DNA from: a virus
Length of the DNA stretch: 10,041 nucleotides
Direction: 5' to 3' (one strand)
UHGV virus genome: UHGV-1984318
The notes under the pieces were generated by a model. It was not told where the DNA came from. It made no database searches and saw nothing but the letters and a program-made list of their open reading frames with translations. The translations under genes and the position numbers were made by a program. This document shows, one piece after another, positions 1-10,041 of this stretch. Position 1 is the stretch's first letter; each line of letters opens with the position of its first letter.

Positions 1-1
1 T

Positions 2-814
2 TCATCGACTATTGAATATTTCTCCCTTACTGGCGCAACCACCGTTGGTGCCGCTTTGTATGTTGCACAGCCATCGCTGATGGTGCAGAAAGGTATTGCC
101 GGAACCTACTGTAAAACTCCATTCGCTGATTCCTATGCGTTCATCAGCAATCCGGCAACAGGTGCGCCGTCTGTATACATCATCGGCTCCGGTCAGGTAT
201 CACCAATCGCCAGCGCGAGCATTGAGAAAATTCTCCGCTCCTACACTGCTGATGAACTGGCTGAGGGTGTGATGGAGTCTCTGCGATTTGATGCTCATGA
301 GTTGCTGATTATCCACCTTCCGCGCCATGTTCTCGTGTACGACGCATCTTCAAGCGCCAATGGTCCGCAATGGTGTGTGTTGAAAACTGGCTTGTATGAC
401 GATGTGTACCGCGCTATCGACTTCATTTACGAAGGCAATCAGATAACGTGCGGCGATAAGCTGGAATCCGTGACCGGGAAATTGCAGTTCGATATCAGCA
501 GCCAGTACGACAAGCAGCAGGAACACCTGCTGTTTACTCCGTTGTTCAAAGCGGATAACGCCCGGGTGTTCGACCTTGAGGTTGAATCTTCAATTGGCGT
601 TGCGCAGTACGCTGACCGCCTGTTCCTCTCTGCAACCACTGACGGCATCAATTACGGGCGTGAGCAGATGATTGAGCAGAATGAACCGTTCGTTTACGAC
701 AAACGCGTTTTGTGGAAGCGAGTAGGGCGCATCAGGAAAAATGTCGGTTTCAAATTGCGCGTTATCACGAAGTCACCTGTCACTCTGTCTGGTTGCCAGA
801 TAAGGATTGAGTAA
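2..814 (+). CDS. gp10: Tail hub / head-completion protein, gp10-like; C-terminal ~270 codons only (5' end lies upstream of the window)
   Basis: Frame is open from nt 2 to TAA at 812-814 with no in-frame stop; the ORF-track start at 56 is an in-frame TTG, so the true start is outside the window. Stop overlaps the ATG of the next gene (TAATG). Assigned by synteny directly upstream of the tail needle gene, as in the P22 order 10-26-14-7-20-16. Confidence 0.75.
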
Positions 815-1515
815 TGGCTGATTCGAATCTCAATGAGCCGGTAACAATTCAGGCTACACGACTCGATACATCAATCCTTCCACGCAATATATTCAGCCAG
901 TCTTACCTGCTGTATGTCATTAATCAGGGGGCTGATGTCGGCGCAATTGCCGGGAAGGCAAATCAGGCTGGTCAGGGCGCTTACGATGCGCAGGTGAAAA
1001 ACGATGAACAGGATGTCGAACTGGCTGACCACGATGCAAGAATCTCCGCAAACACAAAAGCGATAAATCTCCTTGAGGTCAGGTTAACAACTGCCGAAGG
1101 GAAGATAGTCGTACTGCGTAGCGATGTTGATTACTTGCTGGATGAGGTTATCGATATTCAGGCGCATCTGGTCACTGTTGACCAAAGACTGGATGACGTA
1201 GAAAACGATGTCTCTGGCATTAAGAGTGATTACGTATCGAAAACCGTAACCGAATTGCAGTCTCTTGAGTCACCGCTGGATGTAAAAACATCATATTCAG
1301 TTGATGGAATTCAGGTTGTTGGAGCAAGAAATACCGGATGGACTGCAGCCACAGGTACGCCACTTCTTGGCTCATTCAACGCTAACCAGTCATACACTGT
1401 CGGCACTACGTACACACAATCCGAAGTCGCAGCTCTCGCTACAGGTTTGCAGCAGGCGCGGCAGCGTATTCTGGCGCTTGAAACGGCACTTAGATTACAT
1501 GGGCTGATTGACTGA
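814..1515 (+). CDS. gp26: Tail needle (cell-envelope-penetrating fibre), P22 gp26-like, 233 aa
   Basis: 233 aa, the length I recall for P22 gp26. N-terminus [32 protein letters not shown] and C-terminus ..RLHGLID match my memory of P22 gp26; heptad-rich central region fits a trimeric coiled coil. SD AAGGA at 802-806 with 7-nt spacing; TAATG overlap upstream and TGATG overlap downstream. Confidence 0.9.
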
Positions 1516-1972: not shown

Positions 1973-2661
1973 ATGTTATATGCATTTAAGCTGGGCAGAA
2001 AACTGCGCGGCGAGGAACCTTATTGCCCTGAAAAAGGCGGAAAAGGTGGCAGTTCTGATAAAAGCGCAAAGTATGCAGCAGAAGCTCAGAAGTATGCCGC
2101 AGACCTGCAAAATCAGCAGTTCAACACCATCATGAATAACCTGAAGCCGTTTACTCCTCTGGCTGAGAAGTATGTCGGCAGCCTCGAGAACTTATCGTCT
2201 CTGGAGGGGCAAGGTCAGGCACTTAACCAGTATTACAACTCTCAGCAGTATAAAGACCTTGCAGGTCAGGCTCGCTATCAGAGTCTGGCGGCAGCGGAAG
2301 CAACAGGTGGATTGGGTTCCACCGCAACCAGTAATCAGTTAGCAACAATCGCACCAACGCTTGGTCAGCAATGGCTATCTGGACAAATGAACAATTACAA
2401 CAACCTGGCAAATATCGGTCTTGGCGCTCTTCAGGGGCAGGCAAACGCCGGGCAAACATATGCCAACAACATGAGCCAGATTTCACAGCAAAGCGCTGCG
2501 CTGGCGGCGGCGCCAACCGACCGTCAGCATTGCAGCAGGGTGTTAGTGGTGCTGCATCCGGTGCGCTTTTGGGTGGTGGCATAGCCAGTGCTCTCGAGCT
2601 ATCAACTCCGTGGGGTGCTGGTATCGGTGCTGGTCTTGGTCTGCTTGGCTCGTTGTTTTAA
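1973..2661 (+). CDS. gp7: Ejection (E) protein, P22 gp7-like, with the reading frame interrupted by an apparent 1-nt deletion near 2505-2515 (possible pseudogene or sequencing error)
   Basis: ATG at 1973 with SD GGGAGA at 1962-1967. Frame A is protein-like (Q/N/A/G-rich) up to ..SQQSAALAAA at about 2512, then reads junk and stops at 2584. The overlapping frame reads ..ANRPSALQQGVSGAASGALLGGGIASALELSTPWGAGIGAGLGLLGSLF to TAA at 2659-2661, directly before the next gene's SD. Span 1973-2661 is 689 nt, i.e. 229 codons plus 2 nt; P22 gp7 is 229 aa as I recall. The switch falls in gcgctggcggcggcgccaacc (2496-2516). Confidence 0.7.
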
Positions 2662-4087: not shown

Positions 4088-6090
4088 TGAAAGTTACTGC
4101 AAACGGTAAGACATTTACCTTTCCTGATGGTACGAGCACCGAAGATATTGGCACCGCCATTGATGAGTATTTTGCTGGTCAGTCAGCACCAACACAACAA
4201 GGTGTTCAGCAATCGCCAGCAGACAACTCACTTGCATCAGGATATGCACAGCTTGCCACTCAGCAGAAGGAAGGACTAGATCGCTCTGCTGAGCAAGGGG
4301 CTGTTTTAGGTGCTGCAATGCGCGATGCCGTTACCGGTGAAAGCCGAATGACACCAGAAATGGAGAGACTGCAAAATGTTGGGTCTGCTCCAGAGCTTAA
4401 TAGCTTAAGCACTGATGCGCTGCGTGCTGGATTGGGGCAGCTATTTGGTTCCGACGCTTCACAGGAGAAAATACTGCAAAGTATTGGCGGGAAAATCCGG
4501 AAGGATGAGAAGGGAAATTCCATCGTCACTCTTCCTTCAGGGGAATATGTACTTAACAAGCCTGGTTTGTCACCGCAGGATATAACGTCATTCTTGGCAA
4601 ATGCTCTTGCATTCACTCCAGCAGGTAGAGCTGCGTCTGTTGTAGGTGCAACACTAAAATCAGGCGCTACTGATTTAGCTTTACAGGGTGCCACTAAGAT
4701 CGCTGGCGGTGAGAATGTTAATCCAGTTCAAACTGCAATTTCTGCTGGTCTTGGTGGGGTACTGAAGGGTGTAGAAAACACCGCAAGCGCAGTGTCTCGT
4801 TCTGCTATGGGTAAGATTGCTCCTGAAAAACAAGCTCAGATTGACTTTGCCAAGCAGAACAACTTGCCACTGATGACAACAGATCTTGTGGAACCGGGAA
4901 CAAATATTGGTAAGCAAGCACGAGCTATGGCTGAGCGAATCCCAATAGCCGGAACAGGTGGGATAAGAAATGCACAGCAAAAGGCCAGGGAAGATTTAGT
5001 TAGAACATTTAGCGATAATGTTGGTGGAATATCTGACGCACAACTTTACCAATCAGCTACTCGTGGTCAGCAGCAATTTATTCAGGCTGCTGGCAAGCGG
5101 TACGACAGGATCATCAGTTTGATGGGGGATACTCCTGTTGACATCACTGGAACAGTGAAAGCAATTGATGAGCAGATTTCCAAGTTAACTCGCCCAGGAG
5201 TATCGCAAGACCGCTCAGCTGTTTCTGTCCTTCAACAGTTTAGAAATGACATCACCAGCGGTCCAAATAACCTGCAATTAGCTAGAGAAAACCGTACAAA
5301 CTTACGTAAGCGCTTTATGGCAGCACCTGACGAGGTCGATAGAGATACGCTGGAGAAAGCTGCGCAGTCTGTTTATAACGCATACACAACAGACATGAAA
5401 AAAGCGGTTGGCGCAAAACTAGGTGCGAAGGAAGCGCAAAACATGTCGCGTGTTGATCGTTCTTGGGCAAAGTTCAACGACATGATGAGCAATACACGTG
5501 TCCAAAAAGCTATTCAGAGTGGTAAAACAACGCCAGAAGATGTCACTAAACTAGTATTCAGCCAAAGCCCAGCGGAAAGGGCGCAACTTTATCGATTGCT
5601 TGATGATAGTGGGCGTCAAAATGCTAGAGCAGCACTTGTTCAGCGTGCAATGGATAAGGCGACAAGCGATTCAGGAAAGCTTAGCGTTGAGAAGTTTATT
5701 AATGAAATGAAAAGGAATCGGAAGCAGGCTGAGACGTTCTTCAGAGGAGAGCATGGGAAACAGCTTGATGGGATAATGAAATATCTTGATTCCACTAGAC
5801 AGGCAGCTACTGCTGCCGCAAGCCCACTAACAGGGCAAATGGTAGCTGGTCCAGCAGCGCTGATAACAGCTCTTGCGTCTGTTACAAATCCAATGTTTGC
5901 AAAAGTTGCGGCAGTTGGAGCTGGTATCGGTATGGCTGGCAGGGGCTATGAGTCACGCGCGATGAGGAACGCATTACTAAAGTTAGCAAACACGCCAAAA
6001 GGAAGTACTGCTTATGATAGAGCGATCAGACGGGTATCTGAAACTCTTACACCTCTAATTCAGGCTTCAAGTGAGAAAGCCCAGCAGTAA
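4084..6090 (+). CDS. gp16: Ejection (E) protein, P22 gp16-like, 668 aa
   Basis: ATG at 4084 overlapping the gp20 stop; a second in-frame ATG at 4087 has better spacing from GGTGG (4078-4082) and may be the true start. Long uninterrupted frame to TAA at 6088-6090, ~50% GC. Last large gene of the late block before the immI-type region, as gene 16 is in P22. Confidence 0.85.
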
Positions 6091-6098
6091 AAAGTTGG

Positions 6099-6419
6099 TT
6101 AGCGGTTGATGGTTGCTTTTTTCGGGTCATACCATCTCGGCCATTCTTTCAGGAATGGGAATGAGTCGGGAGCGTGGTTCTTTTTGTACGATTTAAGCAG
6201 CCTTAACCGCTCAATCGCACACTCATAAACCTCTTGTTGCCCTGTAGTCATCTCGGTCCATGAAAGGTGATCCATTGATAAGACAACGTTTTCAGCTTCT
6301 TTTATGAGGGCGTTTTTATTTCTCACCGCAGCAGCATGGCTGACAGAGCAATCCTGCCATATTCTTAAAAGCCAAATAGCTAAGCAGATGAAAAAAATGG
6401 TAGAGAGCGATATGTACAT
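6099..6419 (-). CDS. Hypothetical membrane-anchored protein, 106 aa (cargo gene 3)
   Basis: ATG at 6419-6417 with a strong SD (AGGAG, complement of 6426-6430, 6-nt spacing); stop TAA at 6101-6099. N-terminal hydrophobic segment MYISLSTIFFICLAIWLLRIW followed by a Trp/Pro/Lys-rich soluble region. AT-rich. No homologue recognised. Confidence 0.6.
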   Translation of the reverse strand: MYISLSTIFFICLAIWLLRIWQDCSVSHAAAVRNKNALIKEAENVVLSMDHLSWTEMTTGQQEVYECAIERLRLLKSYKKNHAPDSFPFLKEWPRWYDPKKATINR

Positions 6420-6443
6420 GCCGATCTCCTTAGATTTATCAAT

Positions 6444-6478
6444 GCTGCATGATTTTCAACAGACATCAATCATGCAGC
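6444..6478. repeat. Perfect 11-bp inverted repeat (gctgcatgatt / aatcatgcagc) with a 13-nt loop, between cargo genes 2 and 3
   Basis: 6444-6454 gctgcatgatt pairs perfectly with 6468-6478 aatcatgcagc. No U-tract follows on either strand, so it is not a canonical intrinsic terminator. Confidence 0.6.
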
Positions 6479-6499
6479 TATAGGTAATAAATCAAGAAA

Positions 6500-7012
6500 C
6501 TATTGAGAACGTTTGTCTTTTTGAGACTCTAATATAGCCAATACCTTATAAAGAGATTGGTTTGTTGAGTCTAATTTTTGATCAGTGTTATCAATCCTTG
6601 ACTGTAATACTGATTGGTTGTTTTGGATAGTAGCCATTATCTCTGCCTTACTGGTTTGGATGTTTCCTGTTAGCTCTTGTCGTGATGATTCAACTTTATC
6701 ATCTATAGTGCCTCGAATCGTCCATGTGGCGGCAACGATAGAACCAATGATAGCAACTGCAACCCCGTATAGCTCTAAACGTTTCACGGTATCACGACCT
6801 TCTTCTTTGTGTTGCTCTTCTTGTAGGCTAAATATTTGTGGTTCCTTTGACGGATTTCTGCCAGTTGGTCTGTAATACTCTGAATATTTAGCGTTTTCTA
6901 TTGAACTCCATAACGATTTGTCAAAGTCAAGGTTTTCATGTTGGCTTTGAGCATCTCCATAAATACTAGGTGATTTATTGTGAACATGTTGGTCAAACAT
7001 TATCTCCATCAC
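6500..7012 (-). CDS. Hypothetical single-pass membrane protein with coiled-coil-like C-terminal region, 170 aa (cargo gene 2)
   Basis: Minus-strand ORF with possible starts GTG 7012, ATG 7009 or ATG 7000; stop at 6500. One strongly hydrophobic helix LELYGVAVAIIGSIVAATWTI mid-protein, acidic/polar N-terminal ~80 aa, heptad-like Q/N/S-rich C-terminal ~70 aa. Its 5' end overlaps the 3' end of the upstream ORF. Sampled GC ~30-38%. Confidence 0.65.
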   Translation of the reverse strand: MMEIMFDQHVHNKSPSIYGDAQSQHENLDFDKSLWSSIENAKYSEYYRPTGRNPSKEPQIFSLQEEQHKEEGRDTVKRLELYGVAVAIIGSIVAATWTIRGTIDDKVESSRQELTGNIQTSKAEIMATIQNNQSVLQSRIDNTDQKLDSTNQSLYKVLAILESQKDKRSQ

Positions 7013-7340
7013 CCTTTACGAATTTTCCAGAAGAGATATTTTCACTAACTTTGTTTAAACTAAAAAAGTGGAAGAAACCGCAAGTGGTGCATTGCATGGC
7101 TACCATGTTAAGACTATCGTTGCTATAAGTATCTTGATTAACAGGATTATTAGGCAAGCTTTTACCTGGTATGGATGGTCCTATAACTTCAACACCATCA
7201 TCTTTTTTAAGATGCTCCGGTGCTAAAAGAGTCCAGTTTGTATTGCTGCATATTGGGCATACATAAGTTTTTTTGAATGAAGTCAAGTAATTACTAAAAG
7301 ACTCAAAAGTAACTTTTAAGTATTGCTCCTTACTGCTCAT
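6993..7340 (-). CDS. Hypothetical small four-Cys (CxxC..CxxC) zinc-ribbon-like protein, 115 aa (cargo gene 1)
   Basis: ATG at 7340-7338 shares one base with the mnt stop (TAATG on the minus strand); SD-like GAGG ~7 nt upstream; stop TGA at 6995-6993. Contains C-P-I-C and C-T-T-C separated by 53 residues. AT-rich. No homologue recognised. Confidence 0.6.
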   Translation of the reverse strand: MSSKEQYLKVTFESFSNYLTSFKKTYVCPICSNTNWTLLAPEHLKKDDGVEVIGPSIPGKSLPNNPVNQDTYSNDSLNMVAMQCTTCGFFHFFSLNKVSENISSGKFVKGDGDNV

Positions 7341-7579
7341 TATTGGCCTCGAATCTTCTTAAGTACGCTAATTGCAATATCCATTGCTTCCTTCTCTGTT
7401 TTTGTGAGATCTTGAGATGTCGATGGTATGACCTTTTCTCTGTTAATCTTAATCCATAGCTGTATTGCAGCTATGATTTCAGCATTGATAGAGCGCCTGT
7501 TTGTTGCCGCAATGTGAGTAAGCTGCTGCTTGATTTCACTTGGCATTCTTACGTTAAATTGTGGATCGTTTCTAGCCAC
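7340..7579 (-). CDS. mnt: Mnt-like ribbon-helix-helix repressor (maintenance-of-lysogeny repressor of the antirepressor), 79 aa
   Basis: GTG start at 7579-7577 with SD AGGAG (complement of 7586-7590, 6-nt spacing). N-terminus MARNDPQFNVRMPSEIKQQL..NRRSINAEIIAAIQ resembles P22 Mnt (MARDDPHFNFRMP..GRSMNSELLQIVQ as I recall), i.e. the RHH beta-strand and helices. Divergent from arc/ant, as in P22 immI. Confidence 0.85.
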   Translation of the reverse strand: MARNDPQFNVRMPSEIKQQLTHIAATNRRSINAEIIAAIQLWIKINREKVIPSTSQDLTKTEKEAMDIAISVLKKIRGQ

Positions 7580-7598
7580 GTCGCTCTCCTGTTATTTG

Positions 7599-7627
7599 TT
7601 GACATGCTAGAACGGTAGTAGTACGCT
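7599..7627 (+). promoter_or_regulatory. Pant-like promoter for arc-ant: -35 TTGACA (7599-7604), 17-bp spacer, weak -10 TACGCT (7622-7627)
   Basis: Consensus -35 hexamer; the -10 matches only the T-A....T positions. Lies ~45 nt upstream of the arc start. The arrangement (TTGACA-TG-TAGAA.. with operator sequence in the spacer) resembles my recollection of P22 Pant. Confidence 0.5.
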
Positions 7628-7632
7628 TTCAA
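7604..7632 (-). promoter_or_regulatory. Pmnt-like promoter on the minus strand: -35 TTGAAA (complement of 7627-7632), 17-bp spacer, -10 TAGCAT (complement of 7604-7609)
   Basis: Hexamers read on the minus strand with 17-nt spacing. The -10 overlaps the -35 of the divergent plus-strand promoter, as expected for face-to-face Pant/Pmnt. A start ~7597 would give a short leader to the mnt SD. Confidence 0.4.
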
Positions 7633-7653
7633 TAGTAGTACGGTGCTATCATT
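7604..7653. promoter_or_regulatory. Candidate Arc/Mnt operator region: TAG-rich repeats including a 10-bp direct repeat TAGTAGTACG (7616-7625 and 7633-7642) and an imperfect palindrome centred on 7642
   Basis: Direct repeat seen 17 bp apart. aatagtagtac-g-gtgctatcatt (7631-7653) is 8/11 symmetric about G7642, with core TAGTAC-G-GTGCTA. ATGCTAGAA at 7604-7612 resembles the left half of the P22 arc operator as I recall it. Confidence 0.45.
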
Positions 7654-7672
7654 TAATGGAATGGAGTGGAAT

Positions 7673-7834
7673 ATGCAAGGCGCAAGAAAAATGCCGCAGT
7701 TCAATTTGCGGTGGCCTAAAGAAGTATTGGATTTGGTACGCAAGGTGGCGGAAGAGAATGGTCGGTCTGTTAACTCTGAGATTTATCAGAGAGTAATGGA
7801 CAGCTTTAAGAAGGAAGGGCGTATTGGCGCGTAA
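7673..7834 (+). CDS. arc: Arc ribbon-helix-helix repressor, 53 aa
   Basis: ATG at 7673 with SD GGAG at 7663-7666 (6-nt spacing); stop TAA at 7832-7834. Sequence [53 protein letters not shown] is nearly identical to P22 Arc as I remember it. The ORF-track start at 7643 is an upstream in-frame GTG without an SD. Confidence 0.9.
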
Positions 7835-7838
7835 AGTT

Positions 7839-7870
7839 GAAGCCCCAACTGCGGGAACAGTCAGGGCTTC
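7839..7870. other. Stem-loop in the arc-ant spacer: 7-bp outer stem gaagccc/gggcttc plus 4-bp inner stem actg/cagt
   Basis: 7839-7845 pairs with 7864-7870 and 7848-7851 with 7858-7861. Followed on the plus strand by a moderately U-rich tgttgt. This is the position where P22 has the sar antisense-RNA region; function here is not established. Confidence 0.4.
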
Positions 7871-7902
7871 TGTTGTCAGTAAATTCGTGGAGAAAAACCA
7901 AC

Positions 7903-8805
7903 ATGAATAGTATAGCAATTTTAGAAGCAGTGAACACCTCTTACGTACCTTTCAATGGTCAGCAGATTATCACCGCCATGACTGCCGGAGTTGCATATGT
8001 TGCGATGAAGCCAATCGTTGAAAACCTTGGAATGAGCTGGTCAACGCAGCAAACAAAACTCATGAAGCAGATTAGCAAATTCAACTGTGTTCATATGAAC
8101 ATGGTTGCCGCTGATGGTAAGCTTCGTAAGCTACTCTGCCTTCCTTTGAAGAAGTTAAATGGATGGCTGTTCAGCATCAACCCTGAGAAAGTTCGTGCTG
8201 ACATCCGCGATAAACTGATTCAGTACCAGGAAGAATGCTTTACTGTGCTGCATGACTACTGGACGAAGGGAAAGGCAGAAAATGCACGTAAGAAAACATC
8301 TGTTGATGACAGGACTCCGCTTCGTGATGCTGTAAATATGCTAGTCAGCAAAAAGCATCTAATGTACCCAGAAGCTTATGCAATGATTCATCAGCGTTTC
8401 AACGTGGAAAGTATTGAAGAGCTTGATTCATCTCAGATACCGCAAGCAGTAGAGTACATCCACAGGGTAGTGCTTGAAGGCGAGTTCATCGGCAAACAAG
8501 AGAAGAAAACCAACGAGCTTTCTGCAAAAGAAGCAAACAGCCTTGTATGGTTATGGGATTATGCCAACCGCTCACAGGCATTATTCCGCGAACTGTATCC
8601 GGCGCTAAAACAAATTCAATCGAACTATTCCGGCAGATGCTACGACTACGGTCATGAGTTCTCGTATGTTATCGGAATGGCGAGAGACGTTTTAATCAAT
8701 CACACACGAGATGTTGATATTAATGAACCAGACGGACCAACGAATCTTTCCGCATGGATGAGACTTAAGAATAAAGAATTACCTCCTTCAGTACATAACT
8801 ACTGA
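7903..8805 (+). CDS. ant: Antirepressor Ant, 300 aa
   Basis: ATG at 7903 preceded by GTGGAG (7888-7893); stop TGA at 8803-8805; 300 aa as I recall for P22 Ant; lies directly downstream of arc. The ORF-track start at 7837 is an in-frame TTG immediately after the arc stop, adding 22 residues that span the stem-loop and are probably not translated. Confidence 0.85.
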
Positions 8806-8823
8806 CAGATAACCAACGCAACG

Positions 8824-8847
8824 ACCCAGCTTCGGCTGGGTTTTTTT
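8824..8847 (+). terminator. Rho-independent terminator downstream of ant
   Basis: Perfect GC-rich 6-bp stem cccagc/gctggg (8825-8830 / 8835-8840) with A-T extension, TTCG tetraloop (8831-8834), followed by seven T (8841-8847). Confidence 0.85.
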
Positions 8848-8896
8848 ATGCCCAAAATTCACCGCAGCAACTAAGCGGCGATGGCCTTGATGGATA

Positions 8897-8919
8897 GCAC
8901 TACACAAAAAGTGTAGTGC
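8897..8919. repeat. Perfect 9-bp palindromic hairpin gcactacac-aaaaa-gtgtagtgc in the tailspike leader
   Basis: 8897-8905 pairs with 8911-8919 around a 5-A loop. No U-tract follows, so it is not a canonical terminator. A 10-bp perfect palindrome cgtagctacg lies at 8941-8950. Confidence 0.4.
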
Positions 8920-8983
8920 AAAAAGCAAACAAATACTCACCGTAGCTACGCTGCGGAGATTCATTGTATCTGGAGCAAATTAA

Positions 8984-10041
8984 ATGACAGACATTACAGC
9001 CAATGTGATTGTATCGATGCCTTCGCAACTCTTCACTATGGCCCGCTCTTTTAAAGCCGTAGCCAATGGTGAAATTTATATCGGTAAAATTGACACTGAC
9101 CCGGTAAACCCTGAAAACCAGATTCAGGTTTATGTGGAGAACGAAGACGGCTCTCACGTTCCTGTTTCGCAACCAATCATTATTAACGCTGCTGGATATC
9201 CGGTATATAACGGACAGATTGCCAAATTCGTAACCGTGCAAGGCCATTCTATGGCTGTTTACGATGCTTATGGCACTCAGCAGTTTTATTTTCCAAATGT
9301 ATTAAAATACGATCCAGATCAGTTTGGCCCAGACTTCAAAGAGCAGTTATCTCAATCAGGAGCATACATTAATGATGATTCAAAAGGTGATGCATTAATT
9401 GGGGTAAGGCAGCCATTTACCGGGGCTGTAACTATAACTCAGCATGAAAACAATGCTCTTTTCTTAAATGTAAAACAATTTGGAGCAATTGGGGATGGGA
9501 AATATCATCCATTATCTGAGTGGTTTTCTTCAATTTCTGAAGCAAAATCCTTATATCCTTTTGTTGACTCATTATCTCAGTCAATAGACTGGGCCGCGTG
9601 GCAAGCTGCCATTAACACAGGAAAGGTTATTTATGGTACTGATAATGCGTATGTAATAACGGATACGTTAACACCTGTTTCTGGTGGTGGGATAATTGGT
9701 CTTGGTGTGGGCAAATGGGTCTCTGGATATACTGCAACATTTGCTCCTGATATTACCACAGGGACCACATTCCTGATGTACGGTGTAGGAAATAAAAAAT
9801 ATACTGTAGATTGTGTTTCTAATATGGATGTTAGTGGTGGTGTGGTTTCTAATCCATCTTCCGAAGACCCGTATACAACAACGGCACCTGCGTCATCATA
9901 TGATTTATTGGATTTTACTAACGGTGATGCTAATGGGGCTACAAGAGCCACGCTTAAACCATTCTCTGCCGCAATATTGATGCCAGAGACAGGATGTGTT
10001 CGCCTTGAGAACTTTCGTATTGTTCCATATTTCAATGGGCT
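8984..10041 (+). CDS. gp9: Tailspike protein, 5' ~352 codons (3' end beyond the window): conserved P22-family head-binding domain plus start of a beta-helix receptor-binding/depolymerase domain
   Basis: ATG at 8984 with SD GGAG at 8972-8975 (8-nt spacing). I translated the frame by hand and found no stop up to the window end. N-terminus [68 protein letters not shown] matches the shared head-binding domain of P22/Sf6/HK620-type tailspikes as I recall. Downstream ..[30 protein letters not shown].. is a pectate-lyase-like beta-helix entry motif. The ORF track misses it because it has no in-window stop. Confidence 0.85.

What the first reader, a model, noticed from the sequence alone, without database searches (positions are those of the whole stretch)
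6099..7342. AT-rich three-gene cargo operon chained to mnt at the sieA position: candidate undescribed lysogen-expressed exclusion/defence module
Between the gp16-like gene and mnt lie three minus-strand ORFs with no homologue I can recognise: orf115 (four-Cys zinc-ribbon-like signature), orf170 (one hydrophobic helix, then a heptad-like Q/N/S-rich C-terminal region) and orf106 (N-terminal hydrophobic anchor plus a Trp/Pro/Lys-rich domain). Sampled 60-nt stretches are about 28-38% GC against ~50% in the flanking structural genes (counted by eye), which suggests foreign origin. The genes are chained to mnt: the mnt stop overlaps the orf115 start, orf115 ends inside the 5' end of orf170, and orf106 has a strong SD but no convincing promoter of its own. 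Mnt is made in lysogens, so this block should be expressed from the prophage. P22 carries sieA (inner-membrane superinfection exclusion) at this locus. Two membrane proteins plus a small zinc-binding protein is a plausible shape for an injection-blocking or abortive-infection module, but I cannot match this composition to a named system.
Basis: partly seen in the sequence, partly recalled or inferred. Interest (0 to 1): 0.8.

Follow-up and report, generated by a model that had tools for sequence, protein, structure and literature searches.

The report
Repressor-linked two-gene prophage cargo cassette
The "three-gene operon" is really a conserved, uncharacterised pair of genes (a small zinc-ribbon protein and a single-pass membrane protein) that in many enterobacterial prophages sits directly behind the lysogeny repressor, plus an unrelated small membrane protein gene. 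The pair is a good but untested candidate for a new prophage defence system.

Summary
The three minus-strand ORFs are real and chained as described, in a P22-like immI region 99.8% identical to Escherichia phages N7 and HZ41. They are not one unit.

**The pair.** orf115 has four invariant Cys and is zinc-ribbon-like. orf170, best read as 166 aa, has a variable N-terminus, one TM helix and a conserved helical tail. Together they form a conserved, overlapping two-gene cassette. Relatives at 25-50% identity lie directly behind an Arc-family mnt in two P22-like lineages. In nine or more lambdoid prophage lineages they lie directly behind S24-type cI repressors, in the rexAB slot. Identical cassettes occur behind unrelated repressors.

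**orf106.** It is separable: normal GC, found alone beside the same gp16 allele, and absent from all other cassette loci. Its distant relative, mEp043 gp49, also follows cI.

**Comparison with known systems.** None of the three resembles SieA, and none matches a Pfam, NCBIfam or PADLOC family. PHROGs places them only in unknown-function families.

**Best reading.** These are two stacked lysogen-expressed morons, and the pair is most likely a Rex-like sensor plus membrane-effector exclusion or abortive-infection system. Organisation and conservation are shown; expression and function are inferred.

The parts
7604..7632 (-). Pmnt-like sigma-70 promoter (TTGAAA-17-TAGCAT) in the divergent mnt/arc control region
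   Evidence: Promoter scan. The region aligns with the P22 Pant/Pmnt/operator region (P22 features).
7340..7579 (-). mnt homologue: Arc-family ribbon-helix-helix repressor, 79 aa, GTG start with an AGGAG Shine-Dalgarno
   Evidence: Pfam Arc, E = 4.8e-13. 48% identity to P22 Mnt over the N-terminal 40 aa. The stop overlaps the orf115 ATG as TAATG.
6993..7340 (-). orf115: cytoplasmic zinc-ribbon-like protein (CPIC at residues 28-31, CTTC at 84-87); first gene of the conserved cassette
6500..7000 (-). orf170 re-read as orf166: membrane partner with a variable polar N-terminal ~74 aa, one TM helix and a conserved ~70-aa helical tail. Alternative upstream starts are ATG 7009 and GTG 7012.
   Evidence: ORF. 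The start is supported. phrog_24865 is hit by all partners. Alignment of 11 partners. dN/dS 0.17-0.36. No Pfam, PADLOC or PDB match.
6716..6778 (-). Single predicted transmembrane helix of orf166 (residues ~75-95, LELYGVAVAIIGSIVAATWTI), rich in small-xxx-small spacing
   Evidence: Kyte-Doolittle 19-residue window 1.92 at residue 77. A TM helix is found at the same place in all partners.
6503..6724 (-). Conserved juxtamembrane and helical tail of orf166 (W93, I99, R107, E109, E120 invariant; motif TW.I...I..K...SRQEL.G.IQ.S..EI...ID)
   Evidence: Tail length varies by 11-residue indels. Periodicity is weak, peaking at 3.6-3.67.
6424..6500 (-). Long RNA hairpin in the orf166-orf106 spacer, with a perfect 11-bp inner stem (6468-6478 / 6444-6454). 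The outer stem pairs UUUCUU, just after the orf166 stop, with the orf106 Shine-Dalgarno (AAGGAG, 6426-6431). There is no U-tract.
   Evidence: RNA fold: -25.9 kcal/mol, z = -3.5, 0 of 200 shuffles as stable. The terminator scan finds nothing here. The role in coupling or processing is inferred.
6099..6419 (-). orf106: separate single-gene moron at the sieA position, with an N-terminal membrane anchor (residues ~3-21, nt 6357-6413) and a small conserved helical domain. It is convergent with the gp16-like gene, whose stop is at 6090.
   Evidence: ORF. GC 43.6%. Found alone at 97% identity in other P22-like prophages. A 67% homologue sits behind a different cassette. mEp043 gp49 (34% identity) lies 14 nt downstream of cI. 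AF2 pLDDT 87 with no fold match. phrog_10450, unknown function.

Best explanation
The block is two independent lysogen-expressed morons stacked between gene 16 and mnt of a P22-like phage.

**(1) The orf115 + orf166 cassette.** This is a conserved two-gene cassette made of a soluble four-Cys zinc-ribbon protein and a single-pass inner-membrane protein with a conserved helical tail. The two genes always overlap. The cassette always sits immediately downstream of a lysogeny-maintenance repressor. Here it is translationally coupled to mnt. Elsewhere it follows S24-type cI repressors, in the slot where lambda carries rexA-rexB. It is therefore built to be made, at repressor-like low levels, in every lysogen.

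I think it most likely works like RexAB. The cytoplasmic zinc-ribbon protein would act as sensor or regulator. The membrane partner would act as effector, oligomerising through its TM helix and helical tail to disturb the inner membrane when another phage infects, giving exclusion or abortive infection.

**(2) orf106.** This is a separate small membrane-anchored protein at the sieA position. It probably reaches expression by read-through from Pmnt. Its Shine-Dalgarno is masked by a hairpin that translation of orf166 may open.

**Status of each step.** Shown: gene structure, coupling, conservation, purifying selection, context, and lack of homology to known systems. Inferred: expression in lysogens, topology, protein-protein interaction, and any anti-phage function.
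For: **Coupling in the window.** The mnt/orf115 junction is TAATG, the orf115/orf166 overlap is 8 nt, and no terminator or promoter lies between them.

**The same pair elsewhere.**
- Behind a distant Arc-family mnt in another P22-like prophage (L023).
- Behind HTH+Peptidase_S24 repressors and, where an N gene was identified, before it: L005, L006, L012, L013, L016, L024/25, L026/27, L033, L034, L035, L036, and L039 from Pluralibacter gergoviae.
- The gap from repressor stop to the zinc-ribbon gene start is 42-106 nt (337 nt in L033). The pair overlaps by 8-26 nt.
- A canonical terminator follows the pair in L035.

**The cassette moves as a unit.** L035/L036 carry identical pairs behind repressors only 41% identical. 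L033/L034 carry pairs 100% and 99% identical, behind repressors whose N-terminal domains are 38% identical.

**The most divergent zinc-ribbon gene** (L030) also follows an S24 gene.

**These are real genes.** The four Cys are invariant and dN/dS is 0.10-0.45.

**The pair is not tied to one virion type.** It occurs in both P22-like and lambdoid prophages. A soluble plus a membrane component fits a sensor/effector design better than known single-protein Sie factors do.

**orf106 is independent**. Its relative mEp043 gp49 also sits directly behind cI.
Against: - There is no functional or expression data of any kind.
- The topology of orf166 is unresolved, because charges flanking the TM helix are balanced. 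In two distant pairs (L030, L038) the coiled coil precedes a C-terminal TM helix. This leaves open on which side of the membrane the conserved tail sits.
- Position behind a repressor is also compatible with roles in lysogeny control or host physiology.
- The cassette is rare: 41 of 5,426 complete E. coli genomes and 2 of 50,697 phage records. Strong general selection is therefore not evident.
- I could not read Brenes & Laub 2025, so a prior description there cannot be excluded.
Confidence: 0.5

Rival explanations
1. SieA-like superinfection exclusion. One or more of the membrane proteins (orf106 at the sieA position, or orf166) sits in the inner membrane and physically blocks DNA delivery by P22-like phages.
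For: - orf106 occupies exactly the sieA position, immediately after gene 16, convergent with it and on the mnt strand.
- orf106 travels with one gp16 allele in several prophages.
- SieA acts through the ejection proteins gp16 and gp20 (PMC10883804).
- Both proteins have a membrane anchor.
Against: - There is no sequence similarity to P22 SieA and no FxRYPxEAxxFNK motif.
- Each has one TM helix, against the multi-helix SieA topology.
- The orf115/orf166 pair is mostly found in lambdoid prophages that carry RecT, Rep_O, N and CII/CIII genes of other module types. It is not restricted to P22-like prophages, as SieA is.
- The orf106 relative in mEp043 sits in a siphovirus.
Confidence: 0.2
2. Lysogeny-control accessory. 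The pair modulates repressor function, prophage induction or anti-repressor activity, for example by transmitting an envelope signal to a cytoplasmic zinc-ribbon regulator. It would not act on other phages.
For: - The cassette is strictly adjacent to, and on the same strand as, two unrelated classes of maintenance repressor, Arc-type Mnt and S24-type cI.
- Zinc ribbons are common in nucleic-acid-binding regulators. The top fold hits are TFS/TFIIB/NrdR-type ribbons, though weak.
- The architecture, a membrane protein with a cytoplasmic partner, resembles anti-sigma-type signalling. This is an analogy only.
Against: - The cassette swaps freely between unrelated repressors. That argues against a specific repressor partner.
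- Most P22-like and lambdoid phages do without it.
- No DNA-binding family was detected.
Confidence: 0.12
3. Lysogenic conversion of host physiology unrelated to phages, such as envelope stress tolerance, colonisation or serum resistance. Alternatively, an addiction-like toxin/antidote pair that stabilises the prophage.
For: - Other lysogen-expressed lambdoid morons have host-fitness roles, such as lambda bor and lom (established knowledge).
- The full block is carried by many clinical and bovine E. coli isolates.
- A small soluble protein next to a small membrane protein with overlapping genes resembles some toxin-antidote layouts.
Against: - There is no signal peptide, lipobox or virulence-family match.
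- There is no TA family match. The only RHH hits belong to mnt itself.
- The repeated choice of the rex slot is more typical of anti-phage cargo.
Confidence: 0.13
4. The ORFs are non-functional, either chance ORFs or decaying remnants.
For: - They are annotated only as hypothetical proteins.
- One prophage carries a truncated partner of 140 aa.
Against: - Both proteins are conserved at 25-50% identity across many lineages, with invariant Cys and conserved motifs.
- dN/dS is 0.10-0.45.
- The overlap architecture is conserved.
Confidence: 0.03

Closest known systems
Lambda RexA/RexB (cI-rexA-rexB operon)
   Same: A two-gene unit of one soluble and one membrane protein. In the relatives, it sits immediately downstream of the cI repressor and, where an N gene was identified, before it. 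The position implies co-expression with the repressor in lysogens. A terminator follows the pair in L035.
   Different: No sequence relationship: no Pfam or PADLOC hit of any kind, which includes any Rex family they hold. From established knowledge, RexB has four TM helices and RexA has about 279 aa. Here there is one TM helix plus a helical tail, and a 115-aa zinc ribbon. In this window the pair rides on mnt, not cI. Function is untested.
P22 SieA (types A-C; PMC10883804)
   Same: Same genomic slot between gene 16 and mnt/gene 9 of P22-like prophages. Small inner-membrane proteins on the mnt strand.
   Different: No similarity, no FxRYPxEAxxFNK motif and only one TM helix. P22 sieA has its own promoter after the mnt terminator, whereas here no promoter or terminator is seen. 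The pair is not restricted to P22-like prophages.
P22 orf59a (gene between mnt and the mnt terminator)
   Same: It is the positional counterpart of orf115/orf166: cargo placed directly downstream of mnt inside the mnt transcript.
   Different: Unrelated sequence. It is a single 59-aa gene, and its function is also unknown.
PHROG families 4293, 24865 and 10450; mEp043 gp49
   Same: True sequence homologues: orf115 hits phrog_4293 (E = 4.7e-31), orf166 hits phrog_24865 (E = 2.8e-116), and orf106 hits phrog_10450 (E = 3.2e-52). mEp043 gp49 is 34% identical to orf106 over its full length.
   Different: All are annotated 'unknown function' or 'hypothetical protein', so membership names the family but explains nothing.
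Single-protein Sie factors (T4 Imm/Sp, HK97 gp15, phi80 Cor) and Rz-type i-spanins
   Same: Small prophage or phage inner-membrane proteins. The TM-plus-coiled-coil architecture resembles an i-spanin. One relative gives a weak Rz-like PHROG hit (E = 0.0037).
   Different: The resemblance is in architecture only, and partly recalled from memory. The locus is not a lysis cassette, no o-spanin partner was seen, and the 75-aa N-terminal extension and the zinc-ribbon partner have no counterpart.

Membership tests
P22 SieA family | Detectable sequence homology to SieA types A-C | tested here: not met
   BLASTP of orf170 and orf106 against P22 SieA gave no meaningful alignment. Types B and C were not available as sequences.
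P22 SieA family | Conserved cytoplasmic motif FxRYPxEAxxFNK (PMC10883804) | tested here: not met
   A regex search, including a relaxed form, found nothing in orf106, orf166 or orf115.
P22 SieA family | Several transmembrane helices with similar TMHMM profiles across types | tested here: not met
   orf166 and orf106 each have one hydrophobic segment by Kyte-Doolittle. No dedicated topology predictor was available.
P22 SieA family | Location between genes 16 and 9 of a P22-like prophage | tested here: met
Lambda RexAB | Sequence membership in the RexA and RexB families | tested here: not met
   No Pfam, NCBIfam or PADLOC hit for either protein or for nine relatives of the partner.
Lambda RexAB | Two genes immediately downstream of the lysogeny repressor, same strand, before N | tested here: met
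   Met for the cI-linked relatives. In the window the repressor is mnt.
Lambda RexAB | Abortive infection with membrane depolarisation on superinfection | not testable with these tools
   Requires infection assays.
Zinc-ribbon fold | Two CxxC knuckles, conserved | tested here: met
   C28, C31, C84 and C87 are invariant in 14 sequences.
Zinc-ribbon fold | Structural match to solved zinc ribbons | tested here: inconclusive
Zinc-ribbon fold | Metal binding | not testable with these tools
   Needs ICP-MS or a PAR assay on purified protein.
P22 immI region (mnt-arc-sar-ant) | Divergent Arc-family repressors, sar antisense RNA and an Ant antirepressor | tested here: met
   Pfam Arc twice, plus P22_AR_N and P22_AR_C. 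Rfam sar at 91 bits, 7835-7902 minus strand. The control region aligns to P22.
Known anti-phage defence systems (PADLOC-DB v2.0.0) | Match to any component model | tested here: not met
   No families matched, at E-values up to 1, for the three proteins and mnt. The database dates from 2023, so later systems were not covered.
Rz-type i-spanin | N-terminal TM helix plus periplasmic coiled coil, encoded in a lysis cassette with an o-spanin | tested here: not met
   There is only a weak PHROG hit for one relative. The locus is in the immunity region and not a lysis cassette. The TM helix is preceded by about 74 residues.

The most novel reading that the evidence does not exclude
The orf115/orf166 pair defines a previously undescribed two-component anti-phage system. 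A zinc-ribbon sensor is coupled to a single-pass membrane effector with a conserved helical tail. The system has evolved as a portable cassette that plugs into whichever lysogeny-repressor transcript is available, either cI/PRM or mnt/Pmnt. It would be a functional analogue of RexAB built from unrelated proteins.
Probability: 0.4. Interest if true: 0.7.

Novelty: new variant of a known kind. Interest (0 to 1): 0.6.

Why it matters
Genes co-transcribed with prophage repressors, such as rexAB, sieA/sieB and nun, are the classic source of phage-exclusion mechanisms. Here an uncharacterised gene pair with no detectable relationship to known defence families occupies that niche in two different repressor operons. 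It also moves between immunity types as a unit.

If the pair is a defence system, it would add a compact 0.85-kb sensor/effector pair of new composition. It would also show that 'ride on the repressor transcript' is a transferable design rule for finding prophage defences.

The locus is directly testable. Phages N7 and HZ41 exist as isolates, and 41 complete E. coli genomes carry the identical block. For annotation, the result separates one apparent operon into two independent cargo units and corrects the orf170 start.

Tried and rejected
- **Direct comparison with P22 SieA and orf59a:** no similarity.
- **Family libraries:** Pfam, NCBIfam and PADLOC scans of the three proteins returned only sub-threshold noise. 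A Pfam scan of nine partner relatives returned only scattered coiled-coil or TM noise, including apolipoprotein, DUF1664 and XhlA at E >= 0.001.
- **PDB profile searches for all three families:** nothing better than E = 0.047. Influenza HA2 coiled coils for the partner are a compositional match.
- **Word-indexed protein search for orf115:** found only itself. Relatives appeared only with the exhaustive HMMER search.
- **The search for related loci:** failed with the zinc-ribbon alignment and with the broad partner alignment, because no stretch was conserved enough. The first genome scan found nothing.
- **cI-linked cassette against complete E. coli genomes by megablast:** no match.
- **Own promoter for orf106 in the 80-nt spacer:** none found. 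The hairpin there is not a canonical terminator, and its weak Rfam mir-2013 match is spurious.
- **Distant pairs in L038 and L030 as homologues:** the L038 zinc-ribbon protein is probably related (hhalign probability 85%). The coiled-coil/TM partners are not demonstrably related. They are kept as leads only.
- **Literature:** searches by accession, phage name and concept found no description. Brenes & Laub 2025 is not held.
- I ran no further search on orf166. With six close sequences it would give a TM helix plus a long helix, which fold searches cannot interpret.
Full report
**What the window is**

The window carries the ejection-protein genes and the immI region of a P22-like (Lederbergvirus) phage.
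- Bases 6000-7700 are 99.8% identical to Escherichia phages N7 (MH717096) and HZ41. All three ORFs are annotated there as hypothetical proteins.
- The rest of the window is mosaic relative to N7, at 89-97% identity.
- Pfam identifies two Arc-family repressors and a P22-type antirepressor. Rfam finds sar RNA at 7835-7902 on the minus strand (91 bits).
- Identical prophage loci show the gp7, gp20 and gp16 families on the other side.
- The mnt/arc control region aligns with the P22 Pant/Pmnt/operator region (P22 features). The Mnt homologue is 48% identical to P22 Mnt over its DNA-binding N-terminal 40 residues.

**Check of the observation**

The three minus-strand ORFs exist.
- The mnt stop and the orf115 start share a base, as TAATG. 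orf115 stops at 6995-6993, inside orf170. orf106 has an AAGGAG Shine-Dalgarno.
- The only sigma-70-like site on this strand upstream of the block is at 7632-7604, which is Pmnt. No promoter or canonical terminator is detected between 7579 and 6099.
- The likely start of orf170 is ATG 7000, giving 166 aa and an 8-nt overlap. The PHROG profile match begins at residue 5, and gene callers give 166 aa in identical prophages.
- Composition is only partly as described: orf115 is 34.8% GC, orf166 37.9%, mnt 40.0% and orf106 43.6%. The gp16-like gene is 47.1% and the whole window 45.9%.
- Each membrane protein has one hydrophobic helix.
- The helical tail of orf166 shows only weak periodicity, near 3.6-3.67 residues rather than heptads.

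**orf106 is a separate unit**
- In complete E. coli genomes, 41 of 5,426 carry the whole block at 99% identity or more. A further 19 records carry only orf106, matching query positions 1-340 at 97%.
- In two of these that I inspected, orf106 lies in the same place after the same 668-aa gp16 allele. It has its own Shine-Dalgarno and a GTG start, and different cargo lies between it and mnt.
- A 67%-identical homologue in another P22-like prophage follows a different two-gene insert.
- orf106 is absent from every other locus that carries the orf115/orf166 pair.
- Its only relative among isolated phages is mEp043 gp49, 34% identical over the full length. That gene starts 14 nt after the cI stop, ahead of PL and N. 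So orf106 also belongs to a repressor-linked family, but independently of the pair.

**orf115 and orf166 are a conserved cassette**
- A word-indexed search of 5.8 billion proteins found only near-identical copies of orf115. For orf166 it found a few relatives at 40-46% identity.
- An exhaustive HMMER search of 1.84 billion representatives found about a dozen orf115 clusters at 26-35% identity. All four Cys are invariant.
- In every locus I recovered, the zinc-ribbon gene (104-133 aa) is followed by an overlapping gene.
- In all but the two most distant loci (L030, L038), that gene encodes 148-173 aa with the same plan: a variable polar N-terminus, one TM helix and a conserved tail.
- All these partners hit phrog_24865.
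- Unsaturated pairwise comparisons give dN/dS of 0.10-0.45 for both genes.

**Context of the cassette**
- In a distant P22-like prophage (L023), the pair again follows an Arc-family mnt-like gene, with 4-nt and 1-nt overlaps.
- In loci L005, L006, L012, L013, L016, L024/25, L026/27, L033, L034, L035, L036 and L039 (Pluralibacter gergoviae), the pair follows an HTH + Peptidase_S24 repressor that diverges from a cro-like gene. Where an N gene was identified, the pair precedes it. This is the lambda rexAB slot.
- The gap from repressor stop to cassette start is 42-106 nt, or 337 nt in L033. The overlap within the pair is 8-26 nt.
- L035 has a canonical terminator 11 nt after the partner's stop.
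- The cassette moves independently of the repressor. Identical pairs sit behind repressors that are 41% identical overall and 20% in the N-terminal domain (L035/L036). Pairs 100% and 99% identical sit behind repressors whose N-terminal domains are 38% identical (L033/L034).
- The most divergent zinc-ribbon gene (L030, 26% identity) also follows an S24 gene. Its partner has the coiled coil before a C-terminal TM helix.
- A similar inverted pair follows mnt in L038. There the zinc-ribbon protein is probably homologous (hhalign probability 85%), but the partner is not demonstrably so.
- Three loci are less clear. L028 and L029 have no identifiable repressor upstream. In L032 the pair lies next to smpB, with DinI and an S24 gene nearby.
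- Among 50,697 phage records, only N7 and HZ41 carry the cassette.

**What the proteins look like**
- *orf166.* About 74 polar residues precede the TM helix (LELYGVAVAIIGSIVAATWTI). The most conserved stretch follows, with tail length varying by 11-residue indels. No Pfam or PDB sequence match was found.
- *orf106.* AF2 gives pLDDT 87: a long helix over residues 5-48 that includes the anchor, a second helix over 59-77, and an ordered Trp/Pro-rich tail. There is no fold match in BFVD and no PDB sequence match.

**Comparison with known systems**
- None of the three proteins resembles P22 SieA or orf59a.
- They lack the SieA motif and the multi-helix SieA topology described by Leavitt et al. (PMC10883804).
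- PADLOC v2, Pfam and NCBIfam give no family. PHROGs gives only unknown-function families.
- Searches by accession, phage name and concept found no description. The DefensePredictor supplements do not contain these proteins.
- Brenes & Laub 2025 could not be read.

**How it most likely works**
- *Shown.* The pair is translationally chained to mnt. Family-wide, it is placed on the repressor strand immediately after the repressor gene, and it transfers as a unit.
- *From established knowledge.* P22 mnt and lambda cI-rexA-rexB are transcribed in lysogens. The pair should therefore be made constitutively, at low level, in lysogens.
- *Inferred.* The soluble zinc-ribbon protein and the membrane partner act together, which would explain the obligatory adjacency and overlap. 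The membrane partner is the effector.
- *Why I favour a Rex-like sensor/effector mechanism over a SieA-like plug.* The pair has two components, whereas the Sie factors I recall are single membrane proteins. It also occurs in prophages with unrelated virion and injection modules.
- *Open point.* The side of the membrane on which the conserved tail lies is unresolved. A 74-residue charged N-terminus argues for N-in/C-out. The tail-anchored variants in L030 and L038 would put a coiled coil in the cytoplasm.
- *orf106.* It probably depends on read-through. A stable hairpin (-25.9 kcal/mol, z = -3.5) pairs the bases just after the orf166 stop with the orf106 Shine-Dalgarno. A terminating ribosome could therefore unmask it. 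This is an inference.

**Rivals**

The rivals are a SieA-like injection block (most plausible for orf106), a lysogeny-control accessory, and a host-physiology or addiction function. Non-functionality is excluded by conservation and dN/dS.

**Verdict**

The interesting object is a two-gene, repressor-riding cassette of unknown function, with orf106 as an independent neighbour. It is a new variant of a known kind, namely repressor-co-transcribed prophage cargo, and very likely exclusion or defence. All functional claims remain untested.

Noticed in passing
window 1973-2661 (+): The gp7-like ejection-protein gene appears split between two frames: 1973-2584 (203 aa), and 2371-2661 carrying the conserved Gly-rich C-terminus. 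N7 and identical prophages have one 230-aa gene. The difference lies in a diverged patch with several indels relative to N7 (2476-2631).
   Followed up: partly
window 7835-7902 (-): A full-length sar antisense RNA (Rfam RF00262, 91 bits) lies at the arc/ant junction, so the immI regulatory circuit is complete.
   Followed up: yes
window 7546-7579 (-): The GenBank annotation of phage N7 starts mnt 11 codons too late, giving 68 aa. The GTG at 7579, with an AGGAG Shine-Dalgarno, gives MARNDPQFNVRMP, which matches the P22 Mnt N-terminus. RefSeq prophage annotations use the 79-aa form.
   Followed up: yes
window 6424-6500 (-): The hairpin between orf166 and orf106 sequesters the orf106 Shine-Dalgarno against bases just after the orf166 stop. 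This may be translational coupling by unmasking, or an RNA processing or stability element. The weak Rfam mir-2013 match here is spurious.
   Followed up: partly
L035/L036 and L033/L034: Identical zinc-ribbon/partner cassettes sit behind repressors of different immunity type. In L035/L036 the repressor N-terminal domains are 20% identical, and in L033/L034 they are 38% identical. This implies recombination junctions at or near the 3' end of cI.
   Followed up: partly
L038 2196-2886; L030 673-1268: These are variant pairs: a CxxC...CxxC zinc-ribbon protein followed by a short coiled-coil protein with a C-terminal TM helix (tail-anchored, XhlA-like layout). One is again directly behind mnt (L038) and the other behind an S24 repressor (L030). 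They may be a second architecture of the same system.
   Followed up: partly
L040 2090-4510 (Longimicrobiales MAG): A 198-aa protein with a TM helix and a coiled coil shows dubious 27% similarity to the partner tail. It lies just downstream of a 512-aa reverse-transcriptase-domain gene (Pfam RVT_1), a layout reminiscent of RT-based defence systems. It could be a chance coiled-coil match.
   Followed up: no
L003 5352-6350: In prophages that have orf106 but not the pair, the slot between orf106 and mnt holds other uncharacterised cargo. This includes a 121-aa plus-strand gene, a 74-aa double-hydrophobic membrane protein, and a 69-aa gene overlapping the mnt stop. The slot behaves as a cargo hotspot.
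   Followed up: no
L018 8341-8763: One otherwise identical E. coli prophage carries the membrane partner truncated to 140 aa. This may be natural inactivation, or a hint of a cost.
   Followed up: no
window 1-1038 and 8264-10041: The window is not phage N7 itself. Identity drops to about 90% at the left end and in the tailspike N-terminus, and then is lost. This is typical P22-like mosaicism, and the immI/cargo block is the best-conserved part.
   Followed up: partly
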